Shown piece by piece: positions 4,768 through 18,490 of a DNA stretch of 64,000 nucleotides. Each line of letters begins with the position of its first letter. Positions within the stretch are counted from its first letter, which is position 1. Made by a program: the position numbers and the translations under genes. The notes beneath the pieces were generated by a model. That model was not told the DNA's origin. It was given only the letters and a program-made list of their open reading frames with translations, and made no database searches. Source of the stretch: Flavobacteriales bacterium (GTDB lineage: Bacteria; Bacteroidota; Bacteroidia; Flavobacteriales; UBA7312); contig CBFIDK010000001.1 of the NCBI GenBank assembly GCA_965661345.1, positions 266,543-330,542 of the forward strand, in the 5' to 3' direction.

Positions 4768-6036
4768 ATGAACTTTGTAGAGGAATTAAAATGGAGAGGA
4801 ATGATACACGATATCATGCCTGGAACTGAGGAGCAATTACAGAAAGAAATCACTACTGCATACATAGGTTTCGACCCGACTGCTGACTCTTTACACATAG
4901 GTTCATTAGTGCAGATTATGATTTTGGTACACCTTCAACGTTGTGGACATAAGCCAATCGCCTTAATGGGCGGAGCAACCGGAATGGTTGGTGATCCTTC
5001 AGGAAAATCGAAAGAAAGAAATATGCTTTCTGAGGATGTCCTTCAGCACAATTTGAACTGCGTCCAAAAGCAGATGGAGCGTTTTTTAGATTTCGATTGT
5101 GGGGATACTTCAGCAGAAATTGTCAATAATTACGATTGGTTCAAAGACTTTAGCTTTTTGGACTTTATTCGTGAGGCTGGCAAACACATTTCTATTAACT
5201 ATATGTTAGCCAAAGATTCTGTAAAGTCGAGGTTAGAAACGGGAATGAGCTTCACAGAGTTTAGTTATCAATTGGTTCAAGGCTACGATTTTTATTGGCT
5301 GTACAAGAACAAAAATTGCAAAATTCAATTAGGAGGTTCTGACCAATGGGGTAATATAACCACTGGAACAGAATTCATAAGAAGAAAAGATGGAGGAGAG
5401 GCTTTTGCAGTCACTACTCCTTTGATAAAAAAGGCAGATGGTGGTAAATTTGGTAAAACTGAAGAGGGCAATGTTTGGTTAGACAAACGCTTAACTTCTC
5501 CATATAAGTTTTATCAATTTTGGTTAAACTCATCGGATGAAGATGTTAAAAAGTACATTCGTATTTTTACCTTACTCACAAAAGATGAAATTGAGAGTTT
5601 AGAAGCTCAGCATGATGAAGCGCCACACACGAGGCTTTTGCAAAAGACCTTAGCGGAAGATATTACCGTTCGCGTGCATTCAAAAGAAGATTTAGAAGCT
5701 GCTATAAAAGCTTCGAATATTTTATTTGGAAAATCTACTTCAGAAGATTTGCTGTCAATTGATGAGGAAACATTTCTATCGATTTTTGAAGGAGTGCCAC
5801 AGTTTACAGTCAGTAAATCCGACCTAAATGCTGATATATTTGATTTTTTAGCAGAAAAAACACAAGCATTTTCTTCAAAGGGTGAGGCAAGACGTATGAT
5901 TCAGAGTAATGCTGTTAGCATCAACAAAGAAAAAATAGATGTCAATAAAACCTTATCGACTGACGACCTAATTTCAGACAAGTATTTATTAATTCAAAAA
6001 GGGAAGAAAAATTATTTCCTCGTAATTGTAAATTAA
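4768..6036 (+). CDS. tyrS: Tyrosine--tRNA ligase
   Basis: [14 protein letters not shown] (HIGH), [16 protein letters not shown] (KMSKS equivalent), C-terminal S4-like domain. Confidence 0.97.
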
Positions 6037-8402: not shown

Positions 8403-8903
8403 TTATAATATTTTTTCGAAACAGTAGTAGATGTCTTTATTTGGCTTTAGATTGATATGACCTAGTTGTTTATAGCCAAGTCGTTTATAAAAAGTAATTG
8501 CTTTTGGATTGTTAATGTAAGTGTCTAAACGCATAGAAATATGTCCATTTTTTTTAGCTAAGGCTTCAGCAAATGCCATCATTTTTTTTCCTACTCCTTG
8601 ACTCCACACCTTGGTTTTAGCACAAAGGCGGTGAACGACCATGAAATTATTGGTCTTATCTTCCCAATCTATAGACAAATAAGTAGGGTCTTGCTTGGTG
8701 TCAATCTTTATGCCTGAAATTATTTCACCATCTAATATCCCGACATAATAGTCGCCAATTTCAAGATCGTTTTTTATGACTTCTCTATTGGGATAGCTTT
8801 CATCCCATTGGTCAATTCCTAATTCTATCATGCCTTTAACGCAGGAACGATAGACGTCCATTATTTGATCAAGTTCGTTAGCTTGTGCTTTTCGTATATC
8901 CAT
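8403..8903 (-). CDS. GNAT family N-acetyltransferase
   Basis: VHRLCAK..VWSQGVGKKMM motif A, NPKAITFYKRLGY motif B; start overlaps upstream stop (TAATG). Confidence 0.85.
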   Translation of the reverse strand: MDIRKAQANELDQIMDVYRSCVKGMIELGIDQWDESYPNREVIKNDLEIGDYYVGILDGEIISGIKIDTKQDPTYLSIDWEDKTNNFMVVHRLCAKTKVWSQGVGKKMMAFAEALAKKNGHISMRLDTYINNPKAITFYKRLGYKQLGHINLKPNKDIYYCFEKIL

Positions 8904-9862
8904 TATTCAACAAGCAAGTTACACCCTCTGATATCTGAGAGTTCGAGGCGGCCTTTTAGTTCGAAAGAATAATCATCAATTGTTTTTCCTAAATCTTGAG
9001 TAGCAATAAATGAACAGGAGTTAATATTTGCTAAATCAATAACATTGATACCGCCAGTTTGTTGATGCCCTAACAACGTTAGTGGGTCCTGAGCATCACG
9101 AACAAATACTTTCATCCAATGGGGTGTTTCGAAAACCCCGTTTTTCTTAGAATAGGCTTGGGACAGTAATTCAGTCATGCCATATTCAGAATGAATATTC
9201 TCAAGATGAAAGGCTTTTTTCAGTACATCGTGAAGTTCTGATTTTACCATTTCTTTTCGTTTTCCTTTCATCCCACCAGTTTCCATGACGATGGTGTTTT
9301 CTAGCTTTGTTGGATATTGTTCAGCAAGGTCAAGCAGCGCATAGCTGACCCCTATAAGAAGAGTTTTCTTTTCATCTTTTTTCTGAAGTATTGAGGCCAA
9401 TTCATCAATATTATTGAGGTAGAAACCACTATCAGTATGTTTACTTTCTTCAATCAAATGCTTGCACATGAATACTAATGATGAGCCATCTCTCTCAAGG
9501 TAAGAAGGTAAAAGAGCGAGAATGCGATAGTCTTTTATATTTCCATAAAAATGGTTGAATCCTCTTCTAAAACTTTCAATGTAAACATTGATGTCAGTAA
9601 TGCAATGTTGACTTAGGTCTTGGCCTGTAGTTCCGCTGCTTGTAAAAATTTTCTGTACGGTATTTTTATTTGATATTATTTGGTGGCTTTTGAAAAATTC
9701 TATGGGCAAAAAAGGAATTTCAGTAATGGATTTTATAGCCGAAACATCGGTATTAAGTAACTTTAAATACTTTGTGTAAGGTTGGCAATTTTTAGCTTGC
9801 AATTGAAAGGCCTTTAGGGCTTTTTCCTCAAAAGTTGTTTGTTTTTCGAATACCCAATGCAT
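8903..9862 (-). CDS. LuxE/PaaK-like acyl-protein synthetase (adenylate-forming) family protein
   Basis: FTSSGTTG P-loop, METGGMKG, SEYGMTEL, TQDLG, GR...RGC motifs. Confidence 0.82.
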   Translation of the reverse strand: MHWVFEKQTTFEEKALKAFQLQAKNCQPYTKYLKLLNTDVSAIKSITEIPFLPIEFFKSHQIISNKNTVQKIFTSSGTTGQDLSQHCITDINVYIESFRRGFNHFYGNIKDYRILALLPSYLERDGSSLVFMCKHLIEESKHTDSGFYLNNIDELASILQKKDEKKTLLIGVSYALLDLAEQYPTKLENTIVMETGGMKGKRKEMVKSELHDVLKKAFHLENIHSEYGMTELLSQAYSKKNGVFETPHWMKVFVRDAQDPLTLLGHQQTGGINVIDLANINSCSFIATQDLGKTIDDYSFELKGRLELSDIRGCNLLVE

Positions 9863-9873
9863 ACAGCGAAAAT

Positions 9874-9907
9874 AAAAAAAGCTCCTCTATAATGTAGAGA
9901 AGCTTTT
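9874..9907 (-). terminator. Intrinsic terminator downstream of the PiT-like gene
   Basis: - strand: AAAAGCTTCTCTA-CATTA-TAGAGGAGCTTTTTTT; 13-bp stem with one U-G pair, then U-tract. Confidence 0.75.
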
Positions 9908-9927: not shown

Positions 9928-11070
9928 TTAGAATCCTAGTTTTCCAAAGAATTTTGAGATTCCAGCAGCAAATTCTTTTGGTATTTCTACCATCATTGAA
10001 CTAAATGATAATTGGTCATTTACCCCGATGGCAATAGCAATGGAAATGATTAAGCCAATCAGAGCGTATGAGAAATCTTTAATCAACAGCTTGAAGGCTG
10101 TAGCGACGCTATTATCACCTGAATTTCGTATGGCCATAGCGACCTCTCTACCACCTAACAATCCGATAAATACCCAAGTAGTACTCATAGGTACTTTAGA
10201 ATAAAGCTTGAAGTAGAATAAGATAATGCAATAAATAAAGTCAATAATGGTAGCAAAACGAACATCAGTTACTACTGATTTTTCCGTAACAATTTTTTGA
10301 ATTCGTCCTCCTTTGTAGTACAATAGTAACCCTAAGCCTACAAATACCACAAGAGCAAAACCTGCAAATTGTCCAAAGCTCATGCTTCTTGGAAGGTAAA
10401 CGGCAATGTTAGCAGCATCTTGCATTAACCAAACGGACCATAATGTACCACTTGTAATCCACTGTGCAATTGTCCATCCGAACTTGGCTTCGCCAGTAAA
10501 TTTTCTCTTAGCCCATTGAGAGATAATCATGAAAATTATAAAACCCATAAAGAAGGCTAAAACATAGCCACTCATACTTTTAGCCAACACCTTTCCAACA
10601 GCTGCAGGAGCAGCAGCAAAAGAGGTTAAAAGAATGAAAGTTGTAGACACTGGCATTCTTAAACGGGTAAGAATGAGTAAGAATATAGGAGCAGCAATTT
10701 GTAGGAAATGGAAACTTTCAGGAGATTTTTCAAATCCCTTTGCCATAAGTCGACCGTGACTTACATCCCCACTGAACACGAACCAAGAGTAACCTACAGT
10801 TGCTAAGAAAATTCCTCCAATGAAAATCCAAAGCACCCACCATTTTTTCTCCTGATTGGAAGCGATGAAAGTTCCTAATGTTTGGATACTATCGTTAGCA
10901 ACAGCAGCATAAGCAGCAAATACAAAACCTACCCACATACCAATCTGAGGATATGGAGTAGCGAACATTGCCAAAATGAAAGCGATTACAATAAAAGTTA
11001 GAAAATTCCTTTCGCCTTTTTGAATCCAAAGGTTAGTTGGATAGCTGAATTTAGACATCAACTTCCTCAT
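9928..11070 (-). CDS. Divergent PiT/PHO4-fold membrane transporter, probable inorganic phosphate transporter
   Basis: Multi-pass hydrophobic protein with the two-repeat PiT signature in degenerate form: VANDSIQTLGT...RMPVSTT and MQDAANIA...VPMSTT; sits downstream of phoU behind a 4-repeat Pho-box-like array. Start may be 11058. Confidence 0.72.
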   Translation of the reverse strand: MRKLMSKFSYPTNLWIQKGERNFLTFIVIAFILAMFATPYPQIGMWVGFVFAAYAAVANDSIQTLGTFIASNQEKKWWVLWIFIGGIFLATVGYSWFVFSGDVSHGRLMAKGFEKSPESFHFLQIAAPIFLLILTRLRMPVSTTFILLTSFAAAPAAVGKVLAKSMSGYVLAFFMGFIIFMIISQWAKRKFTGEAKFGWTIAQWITSGTLWSVWLMQDAANIAVYLPRSMSFGQFAGFALVVFVGLGLLLYYKGGRIQKIVTEKSVVTDVRFATIIDFIYCIILFYFKLYSKVPMSTTWVFIGLLGGREVAMAIRNSGDNSVATAFKLLIKDFSYALIGLIISIAIAIGVNDQLSFSSMMVEIPKEFAAGISKFFGKLGF

Positions 11071-11104
11071 AAAATTAAATTTTAAAGTTAAGAGTAGAGA
11101 TTAT

Positions 11105-11191
11105 TTACAGTACAGCAATTGTGTAAACTGCAACCATTATAACAACATAAAGAAGTTTGCTAATGTCTGTTTTGTTTTTAATAGTTTCCAT
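11105..11191 (-). CDS. Putative 28-aa single-pass membrane peptide (not in ORF track)
   Basis: ATG...TAA frame METIKNKTDISKLLYVVIMVAVYTIAVL; charged N-terminus then 16 residues of apolar/uncharged character; A at -3 in AT-rich context; ends 34 nt before the PiT-like ATG. Confidence 0.55.
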   Translation of the reverse strand: METIKNKTDISKLLYVVIMVAVYTIAVL

Positions 11192-11249
11192 TGTCTATAA
11201 ATTGTTAGATTAATTACAAAGCAAAAAAAATGTAATTAACTTCGACATG

Positions 11250-11288
11250 GGTTAATTGAAAGTAAATCTAATGTTAAGAAATTGTTAA
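11250..11288 (-). promoter_or_regulatory. Putative Pho box array, four direct repeats at 11-bp period
   Basis: + strand hexamers GGTTAA (11250), AGTAAA (11261), TGTTAA (11272), TGTTAA (11283); - strand TTAACA, TTAACA, TTTACT, TTAACC. Confidence 0.7.
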
Positions 11289-11298
11289 GTGTATTTTT

Positions 11299-11958
11299 TT
11301 ATTGTCTATTTTTTTTGTGTTTAATAACTTTAGATTCTATCGAGAAAATCAGTTCTTCTGCAATATTTTTTGTTAAGTCTCCTGCTCGTTCTAATTTTCT
11401 TACACAAGACAATAAATAAAATAAACTCTCTGCAGAAGATTCTTCATAATTCTCAATGATGACGTTACTGGCTGTGCTATTTATTAAATTTAATAGTTCA
11501 TCCTGTTTGAAAACACGCCTAGCTATGCTTGTGTTTTCTTTTTCAAATGCTTCGATTACATTATCCATCATGGCTTTTAATTGTGCAAACATTTCAACCA
11601 TTTTTATTTCTGTAATAGCTTTTTTTGGAAAAGTTGAATTTAGAGAATTTACATAGTTCGCAATGCCGTCAGCAATATCTGCAATTCGTTCGAGTTCATG
11701 ATTTATTTTGTACACCGATAATACGAACCTTAAGTCTACTGCCACTGGAGAATACAAGGCTAAGATGTTTTCGCAATCTCTATCAATTTTCAGTTCTAGA
11801 GAATTTATTCGTTTTTCAGCATTCGTTATTTCTGCCGCTAAATCTTTATCGAATTCTAAAAGTGCCATTTCGCTTTTTTGCAGCTGATTATTTACTGCCA
11901 AAAACATATTAAGAAGTTCTTTCCTTAGCGCACTAATTTCTTGTTCTATTTGTGTCAT
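11299..11958 (-). CDS. phoU: Phosphate signalling complex protein PhoU
   Basis: Two PhoU repeats: INSLELKID...P(V)AVDLR...ELERIAD and LERAGD..KNIAE; follows pstB. Confidence 0.93.
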   Translation of the reverse strand: MTQIEQEISALRKELLNMFLAVNNQLQKSEMALLEFDKDLAAEITNAEKRINSLELKIDRDCENILALYSPVAVDLRFVLSVYKINHELERIADIADGIANYVNSLNSTFPKKAITEIKMVEMFAQLKAMMDNVIEAFEKENTSIARRVFKQDELLNLINSTASNVIIENYEESSAESLFYLLSCVRKLERAGDLTKNIAEELIFSIESKVIKHKKNRQ

Positions 11959-14566: not shown

Positions 14567-15505
14567 TTATTTAATGAATGCATTAAACTTTTCAATTTCT
14601 TTGTTGTGCTCTGATTGTGGTAAGGGAATGTAGCCTACTTCAGAAACTAATGAAGGAGCACTTTCAAGGTAAAAAGAAACAAACTCTCTGACTTCTTCTT
14701 TTGCAGCGGCAGGGCTACTTACATATATAAAAATTGGTCTTGAAAGTGGCGCGTAGCTACCGTTACCAACAGTTTCTAGTGTTGGGATGATTGGTCCATT
14801 ACCATTATCAACTCCTATGATGTTAAGTTTATCTTTATTTTCCTCGTAGTAGGCCAGCCCAAAAAACCCTAGTGAATACTTGTCGGTTGCAATTCCTTGC
14901 ACCAAAACGTGGTCATCTTCAGAAGCTGTGTAGTCTCCTCGTGTTCCTACTTTTTTTCCACATATTGCTTCCGCAAAGTAGTCGTATGTTCCTGATGCTA
15001 CACCTGGTCCGAATAGGTGTAATTCTTCATTTGGCCACCCTTCTCTTATCTGGTTCCAATACATTACTTTACCTTGAGCATCTGGGCTCCAGATTTTCTT
15101 TAACTCGTCAACGGTTAAATAATCAACCCAGTCATTTTCTGGATTTATTAAAACGGCTAAACCATCATAAGCGACACTTAGCTCTAAGTAATCGATACCA
15201 ATTTCTTTACAAGCATCTGCTTCTGATGTTTTGATTGGTCGAGACGCATCATTGATATCAATTTCTCCTCGCATGAATTTCTTAAAACCACCACCTGTTC
15301 CAGAAACACCAACAGTTACGTCGATATTTGGTTGTACTGTTCTGAACTCTTCTGCAACAGCTTCGGTAATTGGATAAACTGTGCTTGAACCATCAATTTT
15401 GATGTTACCACTTAAGGTATTGCTGTCTGATTTTTGTTCGCTACCGCCACATGCTATTAAGGCAAAGGCTGAGAATGTTAAAATTATTTTTCCTAATGTT
15501 TTCAT
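14567..15505 (-). CDS. pstS: Phosphate ABC transporter substrate-binding lipoprotein
   Basis: Lipobox LIAC; [42 protein letters not shown]. Confidence 0.95.
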
Positions 15506-15598: not shown

Positions 15599-15615
15599 TG
15601 TTAAGGAATTGTAAA
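15599..15615 (-). promoter_or_regulatory. Putative Pho box upstream of pstS (two repeats, 11-bp period)
   Basis: + strand TGTTAA (15599) and TGTAAA (15610); - strand TTTACA-N5-TTAACA. Confidence 0.6.
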
Positions 15616-15682: not shown

Positions 15683-16645
15683 TTAGAATTTATATTCAAA
15701 GTTTAAGAATACGCTTTCTTCTGCTTCGGCATTTGCAGAAGCGTTAGTCCAGCTTTGGTAGTTTAAGGCAACTTTAACTCCTTTTACCATTTCCTTTTCG
15801 ATGCCTACAATCATATATGATCCGTCTTTAGAAATGTTCCAATCTTGATCAGAGGCTAACTCATCATATCTTCCAAACAATGACATGCCATTAGATAAAT
15901 CATAACTTCCGTATGCTGAGATACCAGTTCGTTCTTGATCTGTAACGTTTTTAGCATTTTCTTGAAGGTTGTACTCTAGCCCTAGTCTGTAGCCATCACC
16001 TGAGTAAGCCATAGCTGCGGTAGTTGTATTTTGGTGTGAATCGCCTGCTGCGTAACTTTCTCTTGGCACAACATCGTAAAGCACTCTCAATACTAAATTG
16101 TCAGTAGCATTATATGTCATACCCGCACTACCTCTGAACAGTCCATTAGCTTCTTGTTCTTTTTTGTAGCCCTCGCCATTTAGTACTTGTGCATCTAAAG
16201 ATAGTTTGCTGTTAAATACGTAGTCTAACGACACCCCTACGTCTGCGGAGTTAGCCCATTTATGTTGGTCTTGTAAAGACTTGTAAATGTATCTGCGTCC
16301 CCAAGTTTTTTCCATAAATTTGAAATTCTTGGCGCCAATCATGCCGAAATTAACGTTCATGTTTTCGTTCGCTTTCCAACTAATGGAAGCAATTTTAAGA
16401 AATGCAGTATAAGCGCTTCCTGAATTGTTGTTGCCAACATCAAAGGTTACTTTAGCTTTAAAGTCTTCGCTTAATGAACGGCTGTAACCTAAATACGCTC
16501 TATTGACTTCAAAAGCTTTGAAGTTGTTTTCTTCTTGCGAAAGATTGTAGTTGAAGTTACTAAATACAGTGGCATGTGGCTGACCTTGAGCCATAACACA
16601 CGTGCCAAATAATAAAAGTGTTAAAGTATAAACGATTTTTTTCAT
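15683..16645 (-). CDS. Outer-membrane porin, probably phosphate-selective (OprO/OprP-like)
   Basis: Signal peptide, amphipathic beta-strands, FEVNRAYLGY motif, C-terminal ...FEYKF beta-signal; lies between pstS and phoBR with a Pho-box-like array. Confidence 0.72.
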   Translation of the reverse strand: MKKIVYTLTLLLFGTCVMAQGQPHATVFSNFNYNLSQEENNFKAFEVNRAYLGYSRSLSEDFKAKVTFDVGNNNSGSAYTAFLKIASISWKANENMNVNFGMIGAKNFKFMEKTWGRRYIYKSLQDQHKWANSADVGVSLDYVFNSKLSLDAQVLNGEGYKKEQEANGLFRGSAGMTYNATDNLVLRVLYDVVPRESYAAGDSHQNTTTAAMAYSGDGYRLGLEYNLQENAKNVTDQERTGISAYGSYDLSNGMSLFGRYDELASDQDWNISKDGSYMIVGIEKEMVKGVKVALNYQSWTNASANAEAEESVFLNFEYKF

Positions 16646-16702: not shown

Positions 16703-16730
16703 TATTAAGAGTATGTTAAAAAATTGTAAA
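16703..16730 (-). promoter_or_regulatory. Putative Pho box upstream of the porin (three repeats, 11-bp period)
   Basis: + strand TATTAA (16703), TGTTAA (16714), TGTAAA (16725); starts about 22 nt upstream of the porin -7 element, covering the -33 region. Confidence 0.68.
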
Positions 16731-16784: not shown

Positions 16785-17465
16785 ATGAGCGGATCTATCA
16801 AAATTTTAGTTGTTGATGATGAGGAAGATATCCTAGAATTTTTGGGGTATAACCTTCGCGCTGAAGGCTATGATGTCGTTACGGCAGATAATGGTTTACT
16901 AGCTATTGAATTAGCCAAAGAACACAATCCTTCATTGATAATACTAGATGTTCAAATGCCAAATATGGATGGTATTACCACTTGTGAAAAGATTAGAGAA
17001 ATAGATTCTTTAAAAAACACTGTGGTTACGTTTTTATCCGCACGTTCTGAAGATTATTCTCAAATTGCTGGCTTTGAAGCGGGTGCTGACGATTATATTT
17101 CTAAGCCTATCAGACCTAAGGTATTAATAAGTAGAGTAAAAGCACTTCTTAAAAGGAGAGGAATTACAGAAGATGAGTCAACTATACTAGAACTGGGCGA
17201 TATTATCATTGATTTTGAGAAACACCTAACAACCTTTAAAGGAAAAGAAGTTTCATTAGCCAAAAAGGAGTTTAAGCTATTAAAGTTGTTAACTTCTAAA
17301 CCTGGCAAGGTCTTTGCTAGAGACGAAATACTTGAAAAAGTATGGGGTTTAGATCTTGTTGTGGGAGATAGAACAATTGACGTACATATTCGTAAATTGC
17401 GAGAAAAACTAGCCGATCACTATATCAAAACAGTCAAAGGTGTAGGCTATAAATTCGAGTACTAA
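16785..17465 (+). CDS. phoB: OmpR/PhoB-family response regulator (PhoB/PhoP orthologue by context)
   Basis: VVDDE, LDVQMPNMDG, GADDYISKP receiver; wHTH RTIDVHIRKLREK, TVKGVGY; adjacent to pst locus. Confidence 0.82.
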   Translation: MSGSIKILVVDDEEDILEFLGYNLRAEGYDVVTADNGLLAIELAKEHNPSLIILDVQMPNMDGITTCEKIREIDSLKNTVVTFLSARSEDYSQIAGFEAGADDYISKPIRPKVLISRVKALLKRRGITEDESTILELGDIIIDFEKHLTTFKGKEVSLAKKEFKLLKLLTSKPGKVFARDEILEKVWGLDLVVGDRTIDVHIRKLREKLADHYIKTVKGVGYKFEY

Positions 17466-18490
17466 TGCAATGGACAACGCCTAAACAAATAGCCATTTAT
17501 CTGACACTTTTACTTTGCGTGTCAGTTTCTCTTATTCTCGTATTATTCTCAATAGTTTTTGATTATGATATCAATTGGCAACAAGTGGTGGTAGTTACCA
17601 GTGCTCTGTTTTTGCCCATTTATTTCATTTCATACTTTATTTTGAAAAAATACATACATGAAAAAGTTAAAGTTATTTATAAATCCCTAAGTAGGCACAA
17701 GGGAACTAGCGATGATGTAGAAACTGATTTAAACAAGGTCGATGAGGATGTTGATTCAATGGTGAATGAACGTCAGAAAGAGATCGAAGAGCTTAAAAGT
17801 ATGGAGACCTTTAGGAGAGAATTTTTAGGTAATATTTCCCATGAACTAAAAACGCCTATTTTTAATATACAGGGATACATTCACACTCTTATTGATGGTG
17901 CTATTACGGACGAAAACGTGAATATGCAATACCTTCAGCGGACTAGCAAGAGCGTTGATAGAATGATAAATATCGTTGAAGATTTAGAAATGATATCCAA
18001 GATTGAGTCCAACAGACTTGACCTAGAATTTACTCGATGGGATATCGTAAACTATGTTCAGGAGTTGTTCGATATTTTGGAGATGAAAGCCAAAAAAAGA
18101 AGCGTAAAATTGAGTATCGACAACCAATCAAATATCAATTTTGTAGAAGCTGACAAAGACAGGGTTGCGCAAGTCCTCATAAACCTCATTGAGAATTCTA
18201 TCAAATACGGAAAAGAAGGGGGGCACACCAGTGTTCGTTTTTTTGAAATGGGCGACAATATCTTAATAGAAGTTGCAGATGATGGCGCAGGAATACCCGC
18301 ACATCATTTGCCACGTTTGTTTGAGCGTTTTTATAGAGTGGATAAATCACGATCAAGAAAAGAAGGAGGAACAGGACTCGGTCTTTCTATCGTAAAGCAT
18401 ATCATAGAAGCGCACCGACAAACCATCAATGTGCGTAGTACAGAAAATGTGGGAACTACATTTTCCTTTACATTAAAAAAGAGCAAATAA
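17465..18490 (+). CDS. phoR: PhoR-like sensor histidine kinase
   Basis: Two N-terminal TM helices, FLGNISHELKTP H-box, NLIENSIKY, DDGAGI, FERFYRVDKSRSR, GGTGLGLSIVKH; TAATG overlap with phoB. Confidence 0.85.
   Translation: MQWTTPKQIAIYLTLLLCVSVSLILVLFSIVFDYDINWQQVVVVTSALFLPIYFISYFILKKYIHEKVKVIYKSLSRHKGTSDDVETDLNKVDEDVDSMVNERQKEIEELKSMETFRREFLGNISHELKTPIFNIQGYIHTLIDGAITDENVNMQYLQRTSKSVDRMINIVEDLEMISKIESNRLDLEFTRWDIVNYVQELFDILEMKAKKRSVKLSIDNQSNINFVEADKDRVAQVLINLIENSIKYGKEGGHTSVRFFEMGDNILIEVADDGAGIPAHHLPRLFERFYRVDKSRSRKEGGTGLGLSIVKHIIEAHRQTINVRSTENVGTTFSFTLKKSK

What the first reader, a model, noticed from the sequence alone, without database searches (positions are those of the whole stretch)
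9928..11288. Candidate uncharacterised Pho-regulated unit: four-repeat Pho box, 28-aa membrane peptide, divergent PiT-fold transporter
Seen in sequence: downstream of phoU is a separate unit with the longest repeat array in the window (11250-11288), then a small hydrophobic ORF (11105-11191), a 380-aa multi-pass protein and its own terminator (9874-9907). Established: PiT/PHO4 transporters have two internal repeats, and E. coli PitA is generally regarded as constitutive rather than Pho-induced. Inference: this is a second, starvation-induced phosphate (or related oxyanion) uptake route beside PstSCAB, with a dedicated small-protein partner. I do not recognise a described system with this layout.
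Basis: partly seen in the sequence, partly recalled or inferred. Interest (0 to 1): 0.72.

Follow-up and report, generated by a model that had tools for sequence, protein, structure and literature searches.

The report
Pho-regulated divergent PiT phosphate transporter with micro-protein
Just downstream of the pst-phoU phosphate operon, a marine Flavobacteriales genome carries a phosphate-starvation-type promoter, a conserved 28-residue membrane peptide and a very divergent PiT-type phosphate carrier that databases call 'hypothetical', which is probably a second, ion-driven phosphate uptake route.

Summary
The four-repeat array (11288-11250, minus strand) is the best TT[A/T/C]ACA x4, 11-bp-period array in the window. 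The core TTWACA-N5-TTWACA occurs only three times in 64 kb (0.16 expected): here, before pstS and before the porin gene.

The 380-aa protein fails Pfam PHO4 (13.7 vs 33.7 bits). Its family profile nevertheless hits only the Thermotoga PiT structure 6L85 in the PDB, and Foldseek ranks 6L85 alone at the top. Of the 17 phosphate/sodium ligands of TmPiT, 14 are identical and 3 conservatively replaced.

In 84 related loci, the box lies upstream of the gene about 100-fold more often than background. The gene neighbours phoBR, porin or pst in Flavobacteriales and a divergent NptA Na/Pi cotransporter in 21 Cytophagales loci.

The 28-aa ORF is conserved in 13 of 15 loci of the close Flavobacteriales clade and is under purifying selection. 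It is absent from distant homologues.

Verdict: a Pho-regulon, PiT-superfamily phosphate:cation symporter with a clade-specific single-helix micro-protein of unproven role. This is a new variant of a known kind; Streptomyces pitH2 is the closest precedent. No experiment exists.

The parts
11250..11288 (-). Four direct repeats at 11-bp period (TTAACA/TTAACA/TTTACT/TTAACC): candidate PhoB binding site (Pho box) standing in for the -33 promoter element.
   Evidence: The four-repeat layout is conserved in orthologous loci. The dimer core lies upstream of homologues in 41/84 loci.
11222..11229 (-). Candidate Bacteroidota -7 promoter element: TTTTTTTG, 7/8 match to TAnnTTTG. It aligns with TATATTTGCA/TAAATTTGCA in orthologous loci.
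   Evidence: The TAnnTTTG consensus is from my own knowledge of Bacteroidetes sigma-A promoters. Exact TAnnTTTG elements also lie downstream of the boxes before pstS (TATGTTTG) and the porin (TATATTTG).
11105..11191 (-). 28-aa small ORF with a polar, Lys-rich N-terminus and one hydrophobic helix (LLYVVIMVAVYTIAVL): predicted single-pass membrane micro-protein.
   Evidence: Orthologues found in 13 of 15 loci of the close Flavobacteriales clade. pN/pS is 0.48 over all pairs and 0.16-0.25 for the closer pairs; differences by codon position are 280/177/343. No Pfam, NCBIfam or Rfam match.
9928..11070 (-). 380-aa multi-pass membrane protein: divergent PiT-superfamily transporter, predicted phosphate:Na+ (or H+) symporter.
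9867..9907 (-). Intrinsic terminator: 13-bp stem, 5-nt loop, T-rich tail. It closes the unit.
15599..15615 (-). Pho-box dimer TTTACA-N5-TTAACA upstream of pstS. This is the supporting reference site.
16703..16730 (-). Three-repeat Pho box (TTTACA/TTAACA/TTAATA) upstream of the porin-like gene, in the region divergent from phoB.
16785..18490 (+). phoB (16785-17465) and phoR (17465-18490): the presumed regulator pair acting on the boxes.
   Evidence: Orthologues in L001-L004 carry Response_reg + Trans_reg_C and HisKA + HATPase_c.

Best explanation
The unit is a PhoB-activated transcription unit. It consists of a four-repeat Pho box, a Bacteroidota-type -7 element, a 28-aa single-helix membrane protein and a 380-aa inner-membrane carrier of the PiT superfamily.

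The carrier most likely imports inorganic phosphate together with Na+ (possibly H+) by the PiT mechanism. Two inverted repeats each contribute an (N/Q)D motif on a transmembrane helix and a P-x-S-T-T hairpin tip. Together these hold one phosphate between two cations. This would give the cell an ion-gradient-driven uptake route under phosphate starvation alongside the ATP-driven PstSCAB.

The peptide is a real protein. It is most likely an accessory or regulatory subunit of the carrier, in the manner of KdpF or MgtS.

Shown by computation: the anatomy, the remote homology, ligand conservation, conserved Pho boxes, conserved linkage to pho genes, and purifying selection on the peptide. Inferred: induction, PhoB binding, substrate, coupling ion, and any peptide-carrier contact.
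For: Pho box:
- Best four-repeat array in the window.
- The dimer core is found only before this unit, pstS and the porin.
- Within 250 nt upstream of homologues it occurs (<=1 mismatch) in 41/84 loci, 2.5 per kb against 0.023 per kb elsewhere.
- The same box precedes the porin, phoB and an OprO/P porin (PF07396) in related loci.

Transporter:
- 13 of 30 family members hit PHO4, best E 9.8e-7, and several 45-55% relatives carry a precomputed PF01384.
- The family profile hits only 6L85 in the PDB, E 1.7e-4.
- The AF2 model has pLDDT 79 and pTM 0.78, with helix breaks at both PxSTT motifs.
- Foldseek's top hit is 6L85, probability 1.00 and TM 0.43; the next hit has TM 0.16.
- The TmPiT ligands listed in PMC7413737 map as follows. 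Identical: N21, D22, T29, V104, S105, T106, T107, Q243, D258, K314, D327, S345, T346 and T347 correspond to N59, D60, T67, V141, S142, T143, T144, Q203, D218, K264, D277, S296, T297 and T298. Conservative: S247 to T207, N257 to Q217, I344 to M295.

Synteny:
- phoBR, porin or pst neighbours in 12 of 14 close Flavobacteriales loci, in three different arrangements.
- A divergent NptA gene (PF02690) in 21 Cytophagales loci.

Peptide.
Against: - The window protein itself is far below the PHO4 gathering score (13.7 vs 33.7 bits).
- phmmer against the PDB finds nothing.
- hhalign against E. coli PitA aligns only the PVSTT motif, probability 3%.
- TM-score to 6L85 is only 0.41-0.43 with rmsd about 12 A.
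- Half of the homologous loci show no box by my criterion, and non-Bacteroidota loci gave only inconclusive proteobacterial-type boxes.
- PiT members can carry sulfate (B. subtilis CysP, from my own knowledge).
- No PhoB binding consensus for Bacteroidota was found in the literature searched.
- The peptide is absent from most of the family, so the carrier does not need it in general.
- A peptide+carrier co-fold could not be run.
Confidence: 0.72

Rival explanations
1. The carrier is Pho-regulated but moves a different anion, such as sulfate, arsenate, phosphite or a small organophosphate, rather than orthophosphate.
For: The PiT family includes a sulfate permease (CysP, own knowledge). UniRef's label is 'Phosphate/sulfate permease'. 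21 Cytophagales loci already have an NptA Na/Pi carrier next door, so a second Pi carrier might seem redundant. N257->Q217 and H254->W214 differ from TmPiT.
Against: All eight direct phosphate ligands of TmPiT (D22, D258, S105/T106/T107, S345/T346/T347) are identical. Linkage and boxes all point to the phosphate regulon. No sulfur, arsenic or phosphonate genes were seen beside it.
Confidence: 0.1
2. The 28-codon ORF is a regulatory upstream ORF or leader whose translation tunes expression of the carrier, or an independent membrane peptide. It is not a subunit of the carrier.
For: It sits in the 5' leader 34 nt before the carrier gene. It is missing from most of the family, and in L010 only a truncated remnant remains while the carrier is intact. 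No contact could be modelled.
Against: The amino-acid sequence, not just the ORF, is conserved: a (D/N)(I/L)S..(L/I)Y..IM..V(Y/F)..A motif, with pN/pS 0.16-0.25 in close pairs and saturated synonymous sites. It keeps a uniform single-helix design with a Lys-rich N-terminus, which is typical of membrane micro-proteins such as KdpF and MgtS (own knowledge; MgtS-PitA in PMC11429745). No Rfam element or attenuator-like terminator lies in the leader.
Confidence: 0.3
3. The repeats are not a PhoB site. They bind another regulator, or are AT-rich chance repeats, and the carrier is expressed by read-through from phoU or constitutively.
For: No binding data exist. The GTTAAC core is palindromic, so sites read on both strands. 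No terminator separates phoU from the unit. Looser versions of the pattern are not enriched in this AT-rich window (16 found vs 22 expected at 2 mismatches).
Against: The exact dimer is found only at three pho promoters. It is enriched about 100-fold upstream of homologues in unrelated gene contexts. It occurs before the porin, phoB and OprO/P genes elsewhere. The 11-bp direct-repeat design is that of OmpR/PhoB-family sites and matches the B. subtilis PhoP TT(A/T/C)ACA repeat (own knowledge). Its position relative to the -7 element is conserved.
Confidence: 0.07

Closest known systems
Thermotoga maritima TmPiT (PDB 6L85), SLC20/PiT family, Pfam PF01384 PHO4
   Same: It is the only PDB relative by profile and by fold. 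Both have two inverted repeats, each with an (N/Q)D helix motif and a PxSTT hairpin tip. 14 of 17 Pi/Na ligands are identical. Sizes are similar (380 vs 402 aa).
   Different: About 17% identity. The window protein fails the Pfam threshold. GANDVAN becomes ANDSIQT in repeat 1 and MQDAAN in repeat 2, and STTH becomes STTF/STTW. There is an extra N-terminal helix (residues 18-37) before the TmPiT-equivalent TM1. TM-score is only about 0.43.
Streptomyces coelicolor pitH2 (PhoP-activated PiT gene)
   Same: A PiT-family gene induced at low phosphate through a Pho box made of four core 11-nt direct repeats, alongside PstSCAB (PMC7866108).
   Different: pitH2 is a canonical PHO4 member and a proton/metal-phosphate symporter. 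It has no small ORF, lies away from pho genes, and uses the actinobacterial repeat sequence.
pap-pitH1 / orfA-pit bicistrons (Pit accessory protein, PhoU_div-like)
   Same: An accessory gene is co-transcribed immediately upstream of a pit gene (PMC7866108).
   Different: The accessory protein there is a soluble protein of about 206 aa, and the operon is not PhoP-activated. Here the upstream gene is a 28-aa transmembrane peptide with no detectable similarity to it.
E. coli MgtS (31 aa) acting on PitA; KdpF (29 aa) in KdpFABC
   Same: A single-helix membrane micro-protein of about 30 aa that binds and modulates or stabilises a transporter. MgtS targets a PiT-family carrier (PMC11429745 citing Yin et al. 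2019).
   Different: MgtS is encoded elsewhere, is induced by low Mg2+ and inhibits PitA. KdpF belongs to a P-type ATPase complex (own knowledge). There is no sequence similarity, and no interaction has been shown here.
SAR11 'OG0001433' TmPiT-like candidate (bioRxiv 10.64898/2026.08.15.744057)
   Same: A marine, streamlined-genome protein with about 17% identity and Foldseek probability 1.00 to 6L85, proposed as a compact alternative to Pst.
   Different: It is not shown to be the same family. Distant members of the present family that carry names come from Rickettsiales and Leptospiraceae MAGs. The SAR11 protein anti-occurs with Pst, whereas here it sits beside pst.

Membership tests
PiT / PHO4 (Pfam PF01384; TC 2.A.20) | Match to the PF01384 profile at or above its gathering score | tested here: not met
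   13.7 bits against a 33.7 cutoff, E 0.031. However, 13/30 family members match with best E 9.8e-7, and some 45-55% relatives carry a precomputed PF01384.
PiT / PHO4 (Pfam PF01384; TC 2.A.20) | Two inverted repeats, each with a G-phi-N-D-phi motif and a P-phi-S-x-T motif | tested here: met
   A-N59-D60-S and P140-V-S-T-T in repeat 1; M-Q217-D218-A and P294-M-S-T-T in repeat 2. These are invariant or nearly so in the family. The Gly is lost and N becomes Q in repeat 2.
PiT / PHO4 (Pfam PF01384; TC 2.A.20) | Conservation of the phosphate and Na1/Na2/Na-fore ligands of TmPiT | tested here: met
   14 of 17 identical and 3 conservative.
PiT / PHO4 (Pfam PF01384; TC 2.A.20) | PiT fold (helical hairpins HP1/HP2 around a central site) | tested here: inconclusive
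   6L85 is the sole significant Foldseek hit (probability 1.00), but TM is only 0.41-0.43 and rmsd about 12 A. The model shows helix breaks at both PxSTT tips.
PiT / PHO4 (Pfam PF01384; TC 2.A.20) | Cation-coupled phosphate transport activity | not testable with these tools
   Needs uptake assays.
Pho regulon member | PhoB-type direct-repeat box at the promoter | tested here: met
   This is sequence evidence only.
Pho regulon member | PhoB binding and induction under phosphate limitation | not testable with these tools
   No expression or binding data. Literature searches found no Bacteroidota Pho-box study.
Pho regulon member | Conserved genomic association with pho genes | tested here: met
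   phoBR, porin or pst in 12/14 close loci. NptA in 21 loci and OprO/P in 2. Balneolaceae and Pontibacter loci are stand-alone.
Transporter-associated membrane micro-proteins (KdpF / MgtS type) | Conserved, translated small ORF encoding one transmembrane helix | tested here: met
   Conservation and purifying selection and the hydrophobic C-terminal 16-18 residues. Translation itself was not shown.
Transporter-associated membrane micro-proteins (KdpF / MgtS type) | Physical and functional interaction with the transporter | not testable with these tools

The most novel reading that the evidence does not exclude
The 28-aa peptide is an obligatory subunit or gate of this PiT-like carrier. The pair forms a two-component, Pho-induced, Na+-driven phosphate scavenging system that lets streamlined marine Flavobacteriales reduce or dispense with PstSCAB. 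Consistent with this, several clade members show phoBR + peptide + carrier + porin with no pst operon within 6-8 kb.
Probability: 0.18. Interest if true: 0.72.

Novelty: new variant of a known kind. Interest (0 to 1): 0.5.

Why it matters
Marine Flavobacteriales are major consumers of organic matter in phosphate-poor surface oceans. Their phosphate uptake is usually inferred from pst, pit and nptA annotations.

This family has more than 7,300 clusters at 90% identity and 822 at 50% identity. It is almost always labelled 'hypothetical', so it is invisible to such surveys.

If it is a Pho-induced Na+/Pi symporter, estimates of phosphate-acquisition capacity and of phosphate-stress marker genes in metagenomes and metatranscriptomes need to include it.

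The peptide would add a case of a micro-protein dedicated to a secondary transporter. The conserved TTAACA-N5-TTAACA box gives a usable Pho-box model for Bacteroidota and Balneolaceae.

Tried and rejected
- phmmer of the single protein against the PDB found no hit. A family profile was needed.
- NCBIfam had no model for the carrier or the peptide.
- hhalign of the family against a single E. coli PitA sequence matched only the PVSTT motif at 3% probability. That is uninformative rather than contrary.
- Rfam scan of the leader and unit gave only two sub-threshold chance hits at the terminator. A riboswitch or known leader RNA was therefore rejected.
- A search for proteobacterial-type Pho boxes (CTGTCAT-N4-CTGTCAT) upstream of Myxococcota and Gammaproteobacteria homologues gave a few suggestive sites but nothing beyond chance overall.
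- Literature searches for a Bacteroidota Pho-box consensus found none.
- I checked whether distant low-GC members are SAR11, to link them to the SAR11 TmPiT-like preprint. The named members are Rickettsiales and Leptospiraceae MAGs, so no link was established.
- I considered that the peptide might be a split-off N-terminal helix of the carrier. This was rejected because distant homologues without the peptide have the same N-terminal helix as the window protein.

Full report
**Observation**

On the minus strand the window carries the following genes in order:
- a porin-like gene (16645..15683)
- pstS (15505..14567), pstC, pstA and pstB
- phoU (11958..11299)
- a 28-codon ORF (11191..11105)
- a 380-codon ORF (11070..9928)
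- a strong terminator (stem 9907..9877 plus a T-run)

phoB and phoR lie divergently at 16785..18490.

Ten nucleotides after the phoU stop codon the sequence reads TTAACA-ATTTC-TTAACA-TTAGA-TTTACT-TTCAA-TTAACC (11288..11250).

Scored against TT[A/T/C]ACA x4 at 11-bp period, this array gets 22/24. That is the best of all positions on both strands. The runner-up (20/24) is the array in front of the porin gene.

The exact dimer TTWACA-N5-TTWACA occurs three times in 64 kb against 0.16 expected, and none of 100 shuffles reaches three. All three are on the minus strand, in front of this unit, pstS and the porin. Looser versions of the pattern are not enriched. So it is the exact, phased repeat that is special.

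**Promoter**

Each of the three boxes is followed by a Bacteroidota-type -7 element. The consensus TAnnTTTG is from my own knowledge. The elements are TATATTTG before the porin, TATGTTTG before pstS and TTTTTTTG (7/8) before the small ORF.

I aligned the region from the box to the small-ORF start codon across ten orthologous loci. The four-repeat layout is conserved, and so is a T(A)nnTTTGCA element about 25-30 nt further on.

No terminator-like site lies between phoU and the box. The unit therefore has its own promoter but can also receive read-through transcription from the pst operon.

**The 380-aa protein**

Direct searches give little:
- Pfam PHO4 scores 13.7 bits against a cutoff of 33.7.
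- NCBIfam gives nothing.
- phmmer against the PDB gives nothing.

The family, however, is large. There are more than 7,300 clusters at 90% identity, nearly all unnamed or 'hypothetical'. At 50% identity there are 822 clusters with E<=1e-3.

Using 30 diverse members (A1):
- 13 hit PHO4, with best E 9.8e-7.
- The family profile hits exactly one PDB sequence, the Thermotoga maritima Na+/Pi transporter 6L85, with E 1.7e-4.

An AlphaFold2 model built from a 36-sequence alignment has pLDDT 79 and pTM 0.78. Helices break at both PxSTT motifs, as expected for hairpin tips.

Foldseek against the PDB puts 6L85 first, with probability 1.00 and TM 0.41-0.43. The next hit has TM 0.16.

The structure paper lists the TmPiT ligands (PMC7413737):
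- Phosphate: D22, D258, S105/T106/T107 and S345/T346/T347.
- Na1: N21/D22/V104/T347/K314.
- Na2: N257/D258/T107/I344.
- Na-fore: T29/Q243/S247/D327.

Walking the HMMER alignment maps these onto the window protein:
- Identical (14): N59, D60, T67, V141, S142, T143, T144, Q203, D218, K264, D277, S296, T297, T298.
- Conservative (3): T207, Q217, M295.

These positions are invariant or nearly so across the family.

The protein is therefore a remote PiT-superfamily member that keeps the whole phosphate/cation site. It is still too divergent for the Pfam model, and for a match to a single E. coli PitA sequence.

It also has one extra N-terminal helix relative to TmPiT.

UniRef labels one homologue (Halalkalibaculum roseum) 'Phosphate/sulfate permease', while NCBI calls it hypothetical.

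**Comparative genomics**

I collected 84 related loci.

In the close Flavobacteriales clade (71-88% identity) the gene appears in several arrangements:
- divergent from pstSCAB-phoU and directly upstream of phoBR (L001-L003);
- divergent from phoBR with no pst operon nearby (L004);
- in a phoRB <> peptide-carrier-porin layout, or with the porin between phoB and the peptide (L005, L009, L011-L014).

In 21 Cytophagales loci (Marivirga, Algoriphagus, Belliella and other Cyclobacteriaceae) it is divergent from an NptA-type Na+/Pi cotransporter (PF02690, E 1e-39 to 1e-41).

In L058 the layout is box, then an OprO/P phosphate porin (PF07396), then a second box, then an unknown 251-aa membrane protein, then the carrier. 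L078 has homologues of the same genes: the 251-aa gene lies directly upstream of the carrier, but the porin lies downstream on the opposite strand.

Balneolaceae and Pontibacter homologues stand alone among unrelated genes.

Independently of neighbours, TTAACA-N5-TTAACA (<=1 mismatch) lies on the gene's strand within 250 nt upstream in 41 of 84 loci. That is 2.5 sites per kb against 0.023 per kb in the remaining 1.9 Mb.

Many of the 'background' sites are in fact the same sites read on the other strand, or sites in front of the porin, phoB and OprO/P genes.

In peptide-bearing loci the box sits 165-220 nt upstream of the carrier. In the others it sits about 65-95 nt upstream. The peptide gene therefore appears to have been inserted into the leader in one lineage.

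For high-GC Myxococcota and Gammaproteobacteria homologues, a proteobacterial-type box could not be established.

**The 28-aa ORF**

Orthologues occur in 13 of 15 loci of the close clade. One has a TTG start (L006). L010 has only a truncated remnant and no box. L008 has a shorter variant.

The shared design is a polar, Lys-rich N-terminus followed by (D/N)(I/L)S..(L/I)Y..IM..V(Y/F)..A. This is one hydrophobic helix ending at or near the C-terminus.

Over a gap-free 17-codon core, synonymous differences are saturated (pS about 0.7-0.9). Non-synonymous differences are low: pN is 0.14-0.24 in close pairs, and pN/pS over all pairs is 0.48. Differences fall 280/177/343 on codon positions 1/2/3.

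It has no Pfam, NCBIfam or Rfam match. It is very probably a translated membrane micro-protein.

Its role is inferred only from its fixed position. An accessory or regulatory subunit is the most likely role, with KdpF as a precedent and, for a PiT carrier, MgtS-PitA. A regulatory upstream ORF remains a live alternative.

A co-fold could not be run.

**Comparison with known systems**

The closest regulatory precedent is Streptomyces pitH2. It is a PiT gene activated by PhoP through four core 11-nt repeats at low phosphate. The pap-pitH1 and orfA-pit operons show an accessory gene co-transcribed with pit (PMC7866108).

The present unit differs in three ways:
- The carrier belongs to an unannotated, highly divergent PiT branch.
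- The upstream gene is a 28-aa transmembrane peptide rather than a 206-aa soluble protein.
- The gene is embedded in, or next to, the phoBR/pst/porin locus.

A 2026 preprint describes a comparable TmPiT-like candidate in SAR11. I could not show that it is the same family.

**Verdict**

The finding is a new variant of a known kind: a Pho-regulated PiT-type carrier plus a new micro-protein. It is not a new kind of system. All functional statements (induction, binding, substrate, ion coupling, peptide-carrier contact) remain to be tested.

Confidence in 'Pho-regulated PiT-type phosphate symporter' is about 0.7. Confidence that the peptide is a physical partner of the carrier is about 0.4-0.5.

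Noticed in passing
window 15683-16645 (-), box at 16703-16730: The 320-aa porin-like gene heading the pst cluster has only a weak BBP2 match (E 3.9e-4, below cutoff) and no NCBIfam model. It nevertheless carries a three-repeat Pho box and is a conserved neighbour of the carrier in the clade (38-67% identity in L001-L014). It is probably an unannotated phosphate-regulon outer-membrane channel.
   Followed up: partly
L058 5148-5900; L078 4312-5064; L051 571-1341: An unknown 251-257-aa multi-pass membrane protein with no Pfam match lies directly upstream of the carrier gene in Vicingaceae/Salibacteraceae-type loci. In L058 it has its own exact TTAACATTAACTTAACA box. It may be an alternative partner to the 28-aa peptide.
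   Followed up: partly
L004 11031-11058 and gene 11115-11528; homologues in L005, L006: Two overlapping Pho-box dimers precede a 137-aa protein (precomputed PF27546 MICAH; nothing in my Pfam scan at E<=0.01). This is a further candidate Pho-regulon member near the locus.
   Followed up: no
L010 about 5740-6000: This locus has lost the Pho box. It keeps only a truncated remnant of the peptide ORF (…NDISVSKIIYKN*) followed by a terminator-like hairpin, while the carrier and a downstream phoB remain. This looks like natural decay of the leader gene.
   Followed up: no
L007 (NZVG01000022.1): A contig labelled 'Methanobacteriota archaeon' MAG encodes an 88%-identical carrier, the peptide and a phoB homologue. 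It is almost certainly a mis-binned Flavobacteriales contig.
   Followed up: no
alignment A1, column of D60: A distant low-GC sub-branch (P0194, P0248, P0249, P0253) has Asn instead of the first-repeat Asp (NNSFQ instead of NDSIQ). This could mean altered ion coupling.
   Followed up: no
window 8403-9862 (-): A LuxE-like acyl-protein synthetase (PF04443, E 6e-10) and a GNAT acetyltransferase follow the unit. They keep this position (carrier, with or without porin, then LuxE-like, then GNAT) in most clade loci, although a terminator separates them from the carrier.
   Followed up: no
Pho boxes in many loci, e.g. L053, L057, L061, L070: The common form TGTTAACAAATTGTTAACA contains the palindrome GTTAAC in each half-site, so the direct repeat also reads as a near-match on the opposite strand. 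This may be relevant where the box serves two divergent genes (NptA and the carrier).
   Followed up: partly
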